Source of the DNA: Naegleria gruberi
Taxonomy: Eukaryota
Assembly (NCBI GenBank): GCA_000004985.1
Contig: GG739209.1
Length of the DNA: 3,749 nt
Reading direction: 5' to 3' (one strand)
Shown here: positions 279 through 3,749 of the stretch, in pieces
Layout: the number at the start of each line of letters is the position of its first letter
Numbering within the stretch: the first letter of the stretch is position 1
Position numbers and translations under genes: made by a program
The notes under the pieces: model-generated
The model's database searches: none
What the model was told of the DNA's origin: nothing
The model's input: the letters and a program-made list of their open reading frames with translations, nothing else

Positions 279-1178
279 ATGAATGATACAAATATTATAA
301 TAGATTACAATAATAATAATACTATTGTTACAACAAGTAATACTTCTATATCAAGTAATAATTCAATAATATTATATTCAGATAATATATATGAATTAGG
401 ATCTAATAATGTTGTGGATTTATCGATATTCTTTGTTGGATTGTTTTTATGTTTAATAACTTTGATAATTTCATTTATAATTTGTTTAAATTCCCAAATT
501 AGGACATGTTGTACTTACTGTAAAAGGAAAAGAGACATTAACAAATTAAAAAAACAAAAACTACCAATGAAAGCACTAACTTATTATGAAAATATTAAAG
601 AATATAATGGAAGTTCTAAATTTTATTCAAATTCTCAACCAATTTTATTTTTAATTTCTTCAATTTCTTTAATTTTTTGGTACTTAGGAATTGGATTATA
701 TTATAATTTATTAAATATGAAATGGTTAGATGTTGAAATGGAAAATCAAACTGCTTCTTTAACAAGTAGAAGAGTTTATTGTATTTGCATCTATATTTGG
801 CTAAATTATATTTTAGGTTCCTATTTATATTCAATTAATATATTTGGAAGAGTATTATCTTTATTTGTTTATAATATTCAATTTGGTAGAGATGAAAGAG
901 TTAACACTTATAGAAAGAAACAATTAATATCATTATCAAGTATTTTAATTTTATCAAGTTTAGTAATTTGTATTGGAGTTGTAATTTCTATTTTTATTAA
1001 ATTTAATACAAATGGATCAAAAACAGAAATGAATACAATTACCTGTAATAGAATGAATAGTATTGGTGAAGATATTGCAATTTCACAATACGATCCANAT
1101 ACTCTAGCACTAGTTGTGTTACAATATTTATTAATTGGTTTTATTTTCTTTATTTGGTGTTTAAGTTTCTTTGCTTCN
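279..1178 (+). CDS. 5' portion (300 codons) of an Asn-rich polytopic membrane protein, cut off by the assembly gap. At least 5 predicted TM helices and an N-glycosylation-rich N-terminus (NDT, NNT, NTS, NNS sequons). Possibly a 7TM or GPCR-like receptor, but the family is not recognised.
   Basis: ATG at 279 is the first ATG after an in-frame TGA at 243..245. The frame then runs 300 codons to the N run, which is very unlikely by chance in AT-rich DNA. Hydrophobic stretches sit at about aa 45-70, 122-143, 167-185, 206-230 and 276-300. A basic cluster (KRKRDINKLKKQK) follows TM1, which fits the positive-inside rule. Codon usage looks dictyostelid (AAT Asn, TTA Leu, GGT or GGA Gly). The base at 1098 is n. 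Confidence 0.7.
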
Positions 1179-2546: not shown

Positions 2547-2627
2547 GTTCGCATTGGTACACTTCCTCTAGCACATGAATCATTTGGAATTCTATCAGGT
2601 TCTAAACTTGGTTCCAGAGGTGATTGA
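2547..2627 (+). CDS. Possible C-terminal coding fragment (…VRIGTLPLAHESFGILSGSKLGSRGD, stop TGA at 2625..2627). It might be the end of the gapped + strand gene.
   Basis: This 85-nt stretch is only about 58% AT, which is coding-like for this genome. It is open only in + frame 0, the same frame as the 279 ORF, because the gap length is a multiple of 3. It is GGT-rich for Gly. However, the - strand frame MDQSPLEPSLEPDRIPNDSCARGSVPMR is also open here with CCA-rich Pro codons, so which strand is coding is unresolved. Confidence 0.25.
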   Translation, partial: VRIGTLPLAHESFGILSGSKLGSRGD

Positions 2628-2631
2628 TCCA

Positions 2632-2997
2632 TTAAGAATAATTCTGCATCTCCTTCGTCTTTTTGTGGGAATGTATACTAATTAAATCCAAAAACATTTT
2701 GTGATAATATCCATATAAATAACATGATCTAATATCTCGTCTACCTACATCTAAAACATTAAACATTTTAAATACACAATCATCCACAGTATATTGAATA
2801 CTCTCTCGTTCAAAATGTCTTTCCTCAATCATTATTGAAGCTATCCTTATTATTTCATTTGATAATTGAAAACAAAATTCCTCTCCATCTTCCGTCTCAT
2901 AAACTTCTTCCAATTCCTTTTCTATTTTCTTCATCATTGCTGAATATTCACTATTTACATTTGTTGGTGGTACATTTGGAGTTGTTGGGGTCGCCAT
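2632..2997 (-). CDS. Hypothetical small acidic protein of 121 aa. No family recognised.
   Basis: Complete ORF with ATG at 2997..2995 and stop TAA at 2634..2632. The sequence reads MATPTTPNVPPTNVNSEYSAMMKKIEKELEEVYETEDGEEFCFQ…YLYGYYHKMFLDLISIHSHKKTKEMQNYS. It is about 63% AT, typical of coding and unlike the AT-richer flanks, and uses dictyostelid-type codons. No convincing GT donor lies near its 3' end, so a single exon is likely. Confidence 0.6.
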   Translation of the reverse strand: MATPTTPNVPPTNVNSEYSAMMKKIEKELEEVYETEDGEEFCFQLSNEIIRIASIMIEERHFERESIQYTVDDCVFKMFNVLDVGRRDIRSCYLYGYYHKMFLDLISIHSHKKTKEMQNYS

Positions 2998-3053
2998 CTT
3001 GATCCGATTACTATTAATTTACTTAGGCTATTGTTGTTGTATATTTTGCTGAT

Positions 3054-3059
3054 TTATTT
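3054..3059 (-). terminator. AATAAA polyadenylation-signal candidate for the hydrolase gene.
   Basis: The - strand reads …gcagtaaataaatcagc…, with AATAAA as the reverse complement of tttatt at 3054..3059. This is about 100 nt downstream of the stop at 3157 and about 60 nt upstream of the next gene's ATG. Confidence 0.3.
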
Positions 3060-3132
3060 ACTGCCGATGATTAGCCTACTAAAACAAAGCTACAACAGTT
3101 GTTCATTAATTTTTTTTAAAACTGTAAATTAA

Positions 3133-3146
3133 ATTTGGCGCCAAAT
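3133..3146. promoter_or_regulatory. Perfect 14-bp palindrome ATTTGGCGCCAAAT. Its core TTTGGCGCCAAA matches two overlapping inverted E2F-type sites (TTTSGCGC). It is a candidate cell-cycle cis-element.
   Basis: Seen directly. The GC-rich GGCGCC core stands out in about 75% AT intergenic DNA. It lies 136-149 nt upstream of the ATG of the 121-aa gene (2997) and 11-24 nt downstream of the hydrolase stop (3157). Confidence 0.3.
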
Positions 3147-3156
3147 ATTACAGTTT

Positions 3157-3463
3157 TTATTCGTTGAGATTTGTTGCTTTAAAAACTTCCTTGATATCTT
3201 CTTTAAAATCCAAAATTGAATAATAATCAAAAATATCATTGTGATCAGCTCCTGGTACTGTAATAAATTTAAATTTGTTTTTAGCATTTTCATAAATTTC
3301 CTTTCCATGTGAATAAGGTACAATACTATCTCTATCACCATGTATAATCAATGTTGGTGCTTTGATATTGGAAACTTTATGAATATTACAAAACATATCG
3401 TATGGTCTCATGAATGGTACAATAGGTGCAAGGAATGATCTTCCCAATCCAACATGTAAAATA
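3157..3463 (-). CDS. Terminal exon of an ABHD17/FAM108-like alpha/beta-hydrolase. It carries the catalytic Asp (…PTLIIHGDRDSIVPYSHGKEIYE…) and catalytic His (…ITVPGADHNDI…), with stop TAA at 3159..3157.
   Basis: The translation ILHVGLGRSFLAPIVPFMRPYDMFCNIHKVSNIKAPTLIIHGDRDSIVPYSHGKEIYENAKNKFKFITVPGADHNDIFDYYSILDFKEDIKEVFKATNLNE aligns well with the C-terminal half of the animal ABHD17 (FAM108) serine hydrolases, recalled from memory (…[33 protein letters not shown]…VEGAGHNDIE…). The exon begins straight after a CAG acceptor at 3466..3464. Confidence 0.85.
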
Positions 3464-3510
3464 CTGTTAATGTCAAAATTTTTGAGAATTTTCACAAATG
3501 TAAAACTTAC
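3464..3510 (-). other. Intron of 47 nt (GTAAGT…TTAACAG) in the hydrolase gene.
   Basis: The - strand reads gtaagttttacatttgtgaaaattctcaaaaattttgacattaacag. It has a canonical GTAAGT donor and a CAG acceptor. The region is open in frame, which is why the supplied ORF 3157..3537 carries the false N-terminal extension MLNHISIEIVSFTFVKILKNFDINS. Confidence 0.55.
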
Positions 3511-3520
3511 GATTTCAATG
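3511..3520 (-). CDS. Putative 10-nt microexon (cattgaaatc) of the same hydrolase gene. Together with its phase-1 and phase-2 junctions it encodes P-L-K-S.
   Basis: It is flanked by an upstream CAG acceptor (3523..3521) and a downstream GTAAGT donor (3510..3505). It restores the reading frame between the two large exons and gives LILQT-PLKS-ILHVGLG, which parallels ABHD17 VVLHS-PLTS-GMRVAF. No single-intron model keeps the frame. Confidence 0.5.
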
Positions 3521-3565
3521 CTGATATGATTCAGCAATCAAATTTCAATTACTACTACTACTTAC
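3521..3565 (-). other. Intron of 45 nt (GTAAGT…ATCAG) in the hydrolase gene. It contains a (TAG)3/(CTA)n trinucleotide repeat at 3551..3562.
   Basis: The - strand reads gtaagtagtagtagtaattgaaatttgattgctgaatcatatcag. It has a canonical GTAAGT donor and a CAG acceptor, and in-frame stop codons inside it. Confidence 0.55.
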
Positions 3566-3749
3566 GTGTTTGTAAAATCAATCCACCCACTGGATACTTT
3601 TCAGCCAAATAAGAGCTAGGTCCAGTTCCAATAGAAATACCAAATATTACAATATCAGCCGGATCAATCTTTTCGTTATTTACAAGATAATTATAGGCAG
3701 CTTCAGCACTTTCATAAACATCTAAATAATAATTCTTTTGATTAGTAAT
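3566..3749 (-). CDS. Internal exon, partial because it runs to the window edge, of the ABHD17-like hydrolase. It contains the nucleophile elbow G-I-S-I-G (GxSxG).
   Basis: Reading the - strand in frame from 3749 gives ITNQKNYYLDVYESAEAAYNYLVNNEKIDPADIVIFGISIGTGPSSYLAEKYPVGGLILQT. This resembles ABHD17 …LYLDVEAAW…ILYGQSIGTVPTVDLASRY…. The exon ends in phase 1 at 3566, immediately before a GTAAGT donor at 3565..3560. Confidence 0.85.

What the first reader, a model, noticed from the sequence alone, without database searches (positions are those of the whole stretch)
3133..3146. Perfect 14-bp palindrome ATTTGGCGCCAAAT, an overlapping inverted E2F-like site, in the 159-nt spacer between two tandem - strand genes
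TTTGGCGCCAAA has the same architecture as the classic double E2F site TTTCGCGCCAAA found in animal DHFR promoters. A GC core this strong inside AT-rich intergenic DNA is unlikely by chance. It sits about 140 nt upstream of the start codon of the 121-aa gene, which is a canonical promoter position. It also lies inside the probable 3' UTR of the hydrolase gene. Dictyostelids encode E2F, DP and Rb-family proteins. If the site is functional, the uncharacterised 121-aa gene would be predicted to be S-phase or cell-cycle regulated.
Basis: partly seen in the sequence, partly recalled or inferred. Interest (0 to 1): 0.55.

Follow-up and report, generated by a model that had tools for sequence, protein, structure and literature searches.

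The report
Conserved E2F-type promoter site in Naegleria
The GC-cored palindrome is real and is kept upstream of the same gene in a distant Naegleria species, so it is most likely a promoter binding site of the E2F type, in an amoeboflagellate rather than a slime mould; binding and cell-cycle control are untested.

Summary
ATTTGGCGCCAAAT lies at 3133-3146 in a 159-nt spacer, about 142 nt upstream of the next ATG.

A 14-bp palindrome is not rare here: 45% of shuffles contain one. The GC core is rare: 0.24% of shuffles have a palindrome of 12 bp or more with an all-GC hexamer core.

Three points need correcting:
- The organism is a Naegleria-clade heterolobosean, probably the N. gruberi complex, not a dictyostelid.
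- The "121-aa gene" is exon 1 plus a read-through intron. The real product is about 193 aa and is distantly related to Pfam DUF4639.
- The palindrome is the centre of a 40-bp compound inverted repeat. That repeat lies inside a 57-nt block that is 98% identical in a sister species, while introns and the rest of the spacer are 50-62% identical.

The decisive result comes from N. fowleri. There the orthologous gene has a different upstream neighbour, yet its spacer carries TTGGCGCCA, then ATTTACA after 6 nt, then an A-run. GGCGCC occurs three times in about 86 kb of Naegleria/Willaertia DNA, always upstream of this gene. The motif therefore belongs to the downstream gene's promoter.

It equals the published E2F1 SELEX consensus, and N. 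gruberi encodes E2F, DEL and RB. Binding and cell-cycle regulation were not tested. I rate it a new member of a known kind, of moderate interest.

The parts
3133..3146 (.). Perfect 14-bp palindrome ATTTGGCGCCAAAT. The conserved core is the 12-bp TTTGGCGCCAAA at 3134-3145, which is two overlapping inverted TTTSSCGC (E2F-type) half-sites around GGCGCC.
   Evidence: It is the only TTTSSCGC or GGCGCC in the window. It is conserved in L001 at 1366-1377. N. fowleri has TTGGCGCCA at L005 2904-2912.
3118..3127 (.). Outer arm of the compound inverted repeat (AAAACTGTAA on +). It contains TGTAAAT at 3123-3129, which reads ATTTACA on the - (sense) strand, 6 nt downstream of TTGGCGCCA.
   Evidence: I3: 10/10 complementary, 20 nt apart. 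It is conserved in L001 and L002. The same ATTTACA lies at the same spacing in N. fowleri, at L005 2919-2925.
3148..3157 (.). Second outer arm (TTACAGTTTT on +). It overlaps the last base of the hydrolase stop codon and the AATAAA hexamer (- strand, 3161-3156).
   Evidence: It is conserved in L001.
3100..3156 (-). 57-nt conserved non-coding block. Reading on the - strand it holds the arm, the E2F-type core, ATTTACAG, TTTT, an A8 run (3110-3117) and TTAATGAA (3102-3109). I propose it is the proximal promoter module of the downstream gene.
   Evidence: Window versus L001: 54 of 55 ungapped columns are identical, compared with 75% ungapped and 58% of all columns in introns plus mid-spacer. P is about 2e-6.
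2998..3156 (-). 159-nt spacer between the hydrolase stop codon and the ATG of the downstream gene.
   Evidence: The middle part (3020-3099) is only 59% identical to L001.
2749..2997 (-). Exon 1 (83 codons) of the downstream gene. The gene belongs to a small eukaryotic family distantly related to Pfam DUF4639.
   Evidence: Orthologs: N. fowleri FDP41_003506 (67% identical) and W. magna ABK040_016450 (46% identical).
2678..2748 (-).
   Evidence: The junction ..LD|YTF.. matches the spliced N. fowleri protein P0018. N. fowleri tblastn shows a gap at the same place. The intron is 56% identical to L001, with indels.
2547..2677 (-). Start of exon 2 of the downstream gene (YTFPQKDEGD...RGSVPMR). It runs into the N gap at 1179-2546.
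   Evidence: The full exon is seen in L001 (to 2130) and in L002.
3157..3749 (-). 3' part of an alpha/beta-hydrolase gene (GxSxG ... HGDRD ... DH), cut by the window end. The stop codon TAA is at 3157-3159, overlapped by AATAAA.
   Evidence: The best hits are N. lovaniensis and N. fowleri, at 56% identity.

Best explanation
The palindrome is the core of the proximal promoter of the downstream - strand gene, a DUF4639-related protein of about 193 aa, in a Naegleria-clade amoeboflagellate.

TTTGGCGCCAAA is an E2F-type site. I propose that an E2F-DP heterodimer, or an E2F7/8-like DEL protein, sits on the symmetric GGCGCC core. The T-rich flanks allow either orientation. An RB-family pocket protein would switch the site between repression and activation.

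The flanking ATTTACA heptamers and the A-rich, TATA-like run just downstream are further promoter elements and would place the transcription start a few tens of nt further on. The genome is compact, so the module abuts the stop codon and AATAAA of the upstream hydrolase gene and probably overlaps that gene's 3' end.

Shown: the sequence match, purifying selection on the block, retention of the motif at the ortholog regardless of the upstream neighbour, and presence of E2F, DEL and RB genes in the genus. Inferred: E2F binding, the position of the transcription start, and any cell-cycle or differentiation-linked expression.
For: 1. The motif matches the E2F consensus on both strands and equals the E2F1 SELEX consensus.
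2. The GC core is rare by chance: 0.24-0.9% of shuffles.
3. The 57-nt block is 98% identical between the window and sister species L001. Introns plus mid-spacer are 75% identical ungapped and 58% over all columns, and third codon positions of exon 1 are 81% identical. P is about 2e-6.
4. In N. fowleri the orthologous gene is 61% identical over exon 1 by tblastn to the L001 protein (67% to the window's exon 1), has an intron at the same place, and keeps the convergent TM-protein neighbour (E = 2e-83). Its upstream neighbour is an mRNA triphosphatase instead of the hydrolase.
5. The 206-nt N. fowleri spacer still carries cagTTGGCGCCAtgaaaaATTTACAaaaaaaa about 92 nt before the ATG. The Markov-1 expectation in that spacer is 0.002 for GGCGCC and 0.0004 for TGGCGCCA.
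6. GGCGCC occurs only three times in about 86 kb of Naegleria/Willaertia DNA held. All three are upstream of this orthologous gene.
7. The Naegleria orthologs of the hydrolase have no such element after their stop codons.
8. N. gruberi encodes E2F, DEL and RB. Its E2F has E2F_TDP (1.3e-28) and E2F_CC-MB (7.8e-32) domains and keeps the RRIYD recognition motif.
9. Weak side support: the N. gruberi CDK1 promoter has CGCGCCAAT (TTGGCGCG on the other strand) at -95. It is the only relaxed E2F match in that 1.9-kb contig.
Against: - There are no binding, expression or transcription-start data.
- Only two independent lineages are informative. The W. magna ortholog is ambiguous: its GAGCGCCAAT probably lies in codons 2-4 of a longer CDS.
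- The N. fowleri site matches strict TTTSSCGC only with one mismatch (GTTGGCGC).
- The CDK1 site is not conserved in N. lovaniensis and is only partly conserved in N. fowleri, so general use of E2F sites in Naegleria is not demonstrated.
- Conservation extends well beyond an E2F footprint, so another factor could be the real reader of the block.
- The downstream gene has no known link to S phase. Its distant relatives point to cilia, if anything.
Confidence: 0.45

Rival explanations
1. The block is a conserved promoter module of the downstream gene, but it is read by a factor other than E2F/DP. This could be a lineage-specific protein that recognises TGGCGCCA together with the ATTTACA heptamers. 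On this view the resemblance to E2F sites is coincidental.
For: - Conservation covers 57 nt, not just 12.
- The GGCGCCA-N6-ATTTACA-A-run arrangement is shared with N. fowleri, which suggests a composite site.
- Strict E2F consensus matches are almost absent elsewhere in the Naegleria DNA examined, including around CDK1 in N. fowleri and N. lovaniensis.
Against: - The 12-mer equals a published E2F1 consensus.
- The N. gruberi E2F DNA-binding domain is canonical and keeps RRIYD.
- No alternative factor with this specificity is known to me.
Confidence: 0.25
2. The compound inverted repeat acts in the hydrolase transcript. It would be a 3'-UTR hairpin placed right after the stop codon and AATAAA, helping 3'-end formation, termination or mRNA stability.
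For: - The repeat abuts the stop codon, with its right arm ending on the codon's last base, and AATAAA overlaps the stop in both the window and L001.
- The RNA folds to -9.1 kcal/mol (z = -2.2) in the window and -9.0 kcal/mol (z = -2.0) in L001.
- Both outer arms are conserved between the window and L001.
Against: - The hairpin is weak: 6-8 of 200 shuffles fold as well.
- The N. fowleri and N. lovaniensis hydrolase orthologs have nothing similar after their stop codons.
- The GC core travels with the downstream gene in N. fowleri, where no hairpin forms (z = +0.5).
- No compensatory changes are available to test pairing.
- Rfam finds nothing: the best hit is 23.7 bits against a 55-bit threshold.
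Confidence: 0.12
3. It is a chance palindrome, or the footprint of a tiny mobile element with inverted ends, and has no function. Its conservation would reflect only the short divergence time.
For: - Perfect 14-bp palindromes are common in this AT-rich DNA: 45% of shuffles contain one.
- The terminal arms look like short inverted repeats.
Against: - The block is far better conserved than introns, the rest of the spacer and third codon positions.
- The GC core recurs at the N. fowleri ortholog (P about 0.002).
- No other copy exists in about 86 kb of related DNA, and there were 0 hits for the compound element in JGI metagenome contigs.
- No target-site duplication is visible.
Confidence: 0.05

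Closest known systems
Overlapping inverted E2F sites of animal G1/S promoters (DHFR TTTCGCGCCAAA; E2F1 HT-SELEX consensus TTTGGCGCCAAA)
   Same: It has the same 12-bp architecture, with a palindromic SGCGCS core and T3/A3 flanks, and the sequence is identical to the SELEX consensus. It lies in a promoter-proximal position and is conserved at the orthologous locus.
   Different: The organism is a heterolobosean, where to my knowledge no E2F cis-element has been described. The target is an uncharacterised DUF4639-related gene rather than a replication gene. The site is embedded in a larger conserved inverted repeat with ATTTACA heptamers. No binding or cell-cycle data exist.
E2F7/8 (DEL) sites, TTCCCGCCAAAA-type, bound by one protein with two winged-helix domains
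   Same: It is a near-symmetric site that suits a factor with two DNA-binding domains, and N. gruberi has a DEL-type gene.
   Different: The core here is GGCGCC rather than CCCGCC. Which family member, if any, binds was not tested.
Intrinsic-terminator-like or 3'-UTR stem-loops immediately after a stop codon
   Same: An inverted repeat abuts the stop codon and is followed by a homopolymer run.
   Different: The predicted stem is weak, the structure is not kept in other Naegleria species, and the conserved GC core tracks the downstream gene rather than the upstream one.

Membership tests
E2F/DP-bound promoter element | Sequence matches TTTSSCGC (ideally on both strands, around an SGCGCS core) | tested here: met
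   TTTGGCGC is present on both strands at 3134-3145. The 12-mer is identical to the E2F1 consensus listed in PMC5449588.
E2F/DP-bound promoter element | The organism encodes E2F/DP-family factors and an RB-family pocket protein | tested here: met
   NgruE2F, NgruDEL and NgruRB sequences are in the supplement of PMC4862756. NgruE2F has Pfam E2F_TDP (1.3e-28) and E2F_CC-MB (7.8e-32). The window groups with the N. gruberi complex. A DP subunit was not seen explicitly. The factors were not looked for in the window's own genome.
E2F/DP-bound promoter element | Promoter-proximal position relative to the regulated gene's transcription start | not testable with these tools
   The site lies 142 nt (window), 132 nt (L001) and 92 nt (N. 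fowleri) upstream of the ATG. No transcript 5' ends are available.
E2F/DP-bound promoter element | Conserved at orthologous loci | tested here: met
   It is conserved in L001 and in N. fowleri despite a different upstream neighbour. L002 begins just after GGCGCC and holds only the flanking part of the block. W. magna is ambiguous.
E2F/DP-bound promoter element | Physical binding by E2F/DP and loss of regulation when the site is mutated | not testable with these tools
   This needs EMSA, DAP-seq, ChIP and reporter assays.
E2F/DP-bound promoter element | Target shows cell-cycle (G1/S) or RB-dependent expression; motif enriched at replication and cell-cycle genes | tested here: inconclusive
   No expression data were available. 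Only one cell-cycle promoter could be fetched. N. gruberi CDK1 has a relaxed site (TTGGCGCG) at -95, N. fowleri has a CGCG variant, and N. lovaniensis has none.
RNA hairpin / 3'-end element of the upstream gene | Stable structure, better than shuffles and kept in relatives (ideally with compensatory changes) | tested here: not met
   The fold is -9 kcal/mol with z about -2 in the window and L001. There is no structure in N. fowleri or W. magna. No covariation is available. There is no Rfam match.
RNA hairpin / 3'-end element of the upstream gene | Travels with the upstream (hydrolase) gene in other species | tested here: not met
   It is absent after the hydrolase stop codons of N. lovaniensis (L003) and N. 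fowleri (L004).
Miniature inverted-repeat mobile element | Multiple dispersed copies and a target-site duplication | tested here: not met
   It is single-copy in all related DNA held. The JGI metagenome scan gave 0 hits. No duplication flanks it. The whole source genome could not be scanned.

The most novel reading that the evidence does not exclude
The site is a working E2F/RB-controlled element that drives a cilium-associated gene in an amoeboflagellate that builds basal bodies and flagella de novo. The family is distantly related to DUF4639. From memory, and unverified, the human member of that family is C2orf81, which a 2026 preprint localises to motile cilia. If so, the link between E2F factors and centriole/cilium gene programmes, known from E2F4/5-MCIDAS in animal multiciliated cells, would be far older than animals. 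Naegleria would then offer a simple system to study it.
Probability: 0.08. Interest if true: 0.65.

Novelty: new member of a known kind. Interest (0 to 1): 0.4.

Why it matters
No cis-regulatory element, and no E2F target, has to my knowledge been defined in Heterolobosea, a lineage very distant from animals and plants. The library searches I ran turned up none, and one of the searches was poorly targeted.

A site identical to the vertebrate E2F consensus, under clear purifying selection and retained at the ortholog across Naegleria species, would be direct cis-level evidence for two things. The E2F-RB module inferred for the last eukaryotic common ancestor would have kept its DNA specificity, and Naegleria promoters could be read with animal motif models. 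It also gives a concrete, easily mutated 12-bp target for the transfection and reporter tools now emerging for Naegleria.

If the site is not E2F-bound, the 57-nt block is still a well-delimited conserved promoter module in a genome where promoters are uncharted.

Tried and rejected
- **Dictyostelid origin: rejected.** The spliced hydrolase hits Naegleria at 56% identity, with no dictyostelid hit at E <= 1e-10. The downstream gene's closest named relatives are N. fowleri and W. magna. The exact N. gruberi CDK1 protein is encoded in the same metagenome as L002.
- **Rfam on 2950-3250:** nothing near threshold.
- **Pfam on the 121-aa ORF and on the spliced proteins:** no hit. Only the bridging homolog P0020 reaches DUF4639. 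There is no PDB relative by sequence.
- **Profile search with alignment A2:** swamped by low-complexity candidates, no new orthologs.
- **JGI metagenome scans:** the compound element gave 0 hits. The GGCGCCA-ATTTACA-A6 module gave 5 hits, all in 39-45% GC contigs that look bacterial and fit chance.
- **AlphaFold2 model of P0020:** mean pLDDT 48, too poor for a fold search, which was not run.
- **Look-up of N. gruberi E2F (P0026) in the contig index:** not on record, so its promoter could not be examined.
- **ATTTACA as a general promoter motif:** about threefold denser in 200-nt upstream regions than overall, which AT-rich composition alone could explain. Inconclusive.
- **A second strict TTTSSCGC in N. 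fowleri (L015 5266):** about 310 nt upstream of a low-complexity ORF. Not informative.
- **Literature search for Naegleria promoter motifs:** nothing useful.
- **W. magna as a third conserved case: dropped.** The motif probably lies inside the CDS there.

Full report
**1. The observation**

ATTTGGCGCCAAAT occurs once in the window, at 3133-3146. The upstream - strand ORF, the C-terminal part of an alpha/beta hydrolase, ends with TAA at 3157-3159. The next - strand ATG is at 2997. The spacer is therefore 159 nt (2998-3156), and the palindrome centre is about 142 nt upstream of the ATG.

**2. Is it more than chance?**

A perfect 14-bp palindrome is not unusual in this DNA, which is 26% GC. Of 5000 dinucleotide-preserving shuffles, 45% contain one, and the window holds a second at 995-1008.

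The GC core is unusual:
- a palindrome of 12 bp or more with an all-GC hexamer core: 0.24% of shuffles;
- any GGCGCC: 0.9%;
- any TTTSSCGC: 2.5%.

The emphasis on "perfect 14-bp" does not.

**3.

The palindrome is the centre of a 40-bp compound inverted repeat. The outer arms are AAAACTGTAA (3118-3127) and TTACAGTTTT (3148-3157), 10/10 complementary. The right arm ends on the last base of the hydrolase stop codon (3157).

On the sense (-) strand the region reads: TAA AAACTGTAAT A TTTGGCGCCAAA TTTA ATTTACAG TTTT AAAAAAAA TTAATGAA. An AATAAA hexamer overlaps the stop codon.

As RNA the repeat folds weakly: -9.1 kcal/mol, z = -2.2, with 6 of 200 shuffles folding as well.

**4. Gene models and organism**

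The 121-aa ORF has only two close relatives among 5.8 billion proteins. One is on Logan contig L001 and one on ENA metagenome contig L002. Comparing these loci shows that the ORF is exon 1 (2997-2749) read through a 71-nt intron (2748-2678). Exon 2 starts at 2677 and runs into the N gap. The full product in L001 is 193 aa.

An exhaustive HMMER search with exon 1 found a properly spliced N. fowleri protein (67% identical, with the junction ..ILD|YTF.. exactly as I modelled it) and a Willaertia magna protein (46% identical). It also found more distant proteins, one of which (P0020) matches Pfam DUF4639 above threshold.

The hydrolase, spliced from L001 (six introns of 39-81 nt, including a 10-nt micro-exon), has N. 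lovaniensis and N. fowleri as its best hits, at 56% identity, and no dictyostelid hits. The exact N. gruberi CDK1 protein is encoded in the same metagenome as L002.

The window therefore comes from a Naegleria-clade heterolobosean, most likely the N. gruberi complex, and not from a dictyostelid.

**5. Conservation in the sister species**

I aligned the - strand of the window to L001:

| Region | Identity |
|---|---|
| Exons | 83-93% |
| Third codon positions of exon 1 | 81% |
| Introns and middle of the spacer | 50-62% of columns, with many indels |
| 57-nt block 3156-3100 (just after the stop codon to TTAATGAA) | 54 of 55 ungapped columns |

The probability of the block's conservation under the intron/spacer rate is about 2e-6. 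L002, where it overlaps, is identical through the block.

In L001 the fourteenth base differs, so the conserved palindrome is the 12-bp TTTGGCGCCAAA. That is exactly the extent of two overlapping TTTSSCGC sites.

**6. Which gene does it belong to?**

This is the decisive test.
- The Naegleria orthologs of the hydrolase (L003, L004) have a different downstream gene, a class II aminoacyl-tRNA synthetase. Nothing resembling the element follows their stop codons.
- The N. fowleri ortholog of the downstream gene (L005) keeps the convergent TM-protein neighbour (38% identical, E = 2e-83) and an intron at the same place. Its upstream neighbour is an mRNA triphosphatase.
- The 206-nt N. fowleri spacer nevertheless contains cagTTGGCGCCAtgaaaaATTTACAaaaaaaa, about 92 nt before the ATG. 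This is the same order as in the window: TTGGCGCCA, six bases, ATTTACA, then an A-run (directly after ATTTACA in N. fowleri; after an intervening GTTTT in the window).
- The first-order Markov expectation in that spacer is 0.002 for GGCGCC and 0.0004 for TGGCGCCA.
All three are upstream of this one orthologous gene.
- No hairpin forms in N. fowleri (z = +0.5).

The GC-cored motif therefore belongs to the promoter of the downstream gene. It is not part of the 3' end of the hydrolase, and DNA-level recognition explains the conservation better than RNA structure does.

W. magna is uninformative. Homology extends upstream of the annotated ATG, and the only in-frame ATG puts its GAGCGCCAAT in codons 2-4.

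**7. Is it an E2F site?**

In favour:
- The 12-mer equals the E2F1 HT-SELEX consensus listed in PMC5449588.
- It has the architecture of the DHFR site ATTTCGCGCCAAACT used as an E2F probe in PMC3205837.
- Medina et al. 2016 (PMC4862756) report E2F1-6, DP, E2F7/8 and pRb families in Excavata.
- Their supplement holds N. gruberi E2F, DEL and RB sequences.
- The N. gruberi E2F scores 1.3e-28 on Pfam E2F_TDP and 7.8e-32 on E2F_CC-MB and keeps the RRIYD recognition motif.

The trans-acting machinery therefore exists in the genus and should have canonical specificity. That last step is an inference from established knowledge of E2F-DP-DNA recognition.

I could fetch only one classical cell-cycle promoter. 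N. gruberi CDK1 has CGCGCCAAT (TTGGCGCG on the other strand) at -95, the only relaxed E2F match in that contig. At the aligned position N. fowleri has CTCGCGAATTT and N. lovaniensis has no such motif. This is weak, partial support at best.

Binding, position of the transcription start, cell-cycle periodicity and genome-wide enrichment could not be tested.

**8. Most likely mechanism**

The block is the proximal promoter of the DUF4639-related gene. An E2F-DP heterodimer, or a DEL-type protein, binds the symmetric GGCGCC core with its T/A flanks. An RB-family protein would gate its activity.

The ATTTACA heptamers are a second, unidentified element. They form an inverted pair in the N. gruberi lineage and a single copy at the same spacing in N. 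fowleri. The A-run is TATA-like and would set the start site a few tens of nt downstream.

Because the spacer is only 159 nt, the module abuts the hydrolase stop codon and AATAAA, and the hydrolase 3' end must overlap it. That double duty may explain why the 5' arm is also conserved.

My confidence that this is a functional promoter element of the downstream gene is about 0.7. My confidence that E2F-family proteins read it is about 0.45.

**9. Rivals**

- Another factor reads the same module (0.25).
- A 3'-UTR hairpin of the hydrolase (0.12). The stem is weak, it is absent from the hydrolase orthologs, and the core follows the other gene.
- Chance or a mobile-element remnant (0.05). The element is single-copy, the metagenome scan gave no hits, and there is no target-site duplication.

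**10. Comparison with what is known, and novelty**

By mechanism and sequence this is an ordinary E2F-type double site. What is new is the setting. It lies in a heterolobosean, where I know of no described E2F cis-element or mapped promoter. It sits upstream of an uncharacterised gene whose distant relatives (DUF4639) may be cilium-associated. The link to human C2orf81 is my recollection and was not verified; C2orf81 is reported in motile cilia in a 2026 preprint.

I class it as a new member of a known kind, of moderate interest. The site type and its conservation stand. The organism, the gene model and the isolation of the site were wrong. The predicted S-phase regulation remains untested.

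Noticed in passing
window ~3404/3405 versus L001 1055-1113; L001 929-938 / window ~3492-3501: The hydrolase gene has a 59-nt intron in the sister species that is absent at the aligned position in the window. This is an intron presence/absence difference between close relatives. Both lineages also have an apparent 10-nt micro-exon.
   Followed up: partly
L002 1-15 (ENA ERZ929261 contig k127_304514): This metagenome contig starts exactly after GGCGCC, inside the palindrome. The assembly or sequencing may have broken at the GC-cored inverted repeat, or it may be coincidence.
   Followed up: no
window 3102-3109 (- strand TTAATGAA); L001 ~1410; L002 ~30: An upstream ATG is conserved in the spacer and opens short uORFs of 11-13 codons in all three sequences. 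The peptides are not conserved. It matters only if transcription starts upstream of it.
   Followed up: no
L014 1-120; L015 9760-9870; L016 9780-9870: CDK1 promoters of three Naegleria species are alignable. They share two CCGTTAC boxes (GTAACGG, a Myb/MSA-like core) and, in N. fowleri and N. lovaniensis (not N. gruberi), an AAAAATTTACAA element that also occurs in the N. fowleri promoter of the DUF4639-like gene. These may be general Naegleria cell-cycle or core-promoter motifs.
   Followed up: partly
window 995-1008: A second perfect 14-bp palindrome, TATTAAATTTAATA, lies inside the coding sequence of the + strand membrane-protein gene. It is all A/T and is expected by chance in this composition.
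   Followed up: yes
window 279-1178 (+), continuing into the N gap 1179-2546; L001 2231-3775; L005 4453-5904: A multi-pass membrane protein with no Pfam family lies convergent to the DUF4639-like gene. This gene pair is syntenic between the window lineage and N. fowleri. The 1368-nt N gap interrupts both genes in the window, which may be why neither has a matching protein entry.
   Followed up: partly
L006 2893-3001 (Willaertia magna JBEGDK010000083.1): The annotated start of ABK040_016450 is probably too far downstream. Homology extends to 2935, and the only in-frame ATG is at 2893, 5 nt after the upstream gene's stop codon.
   Followed up: partly
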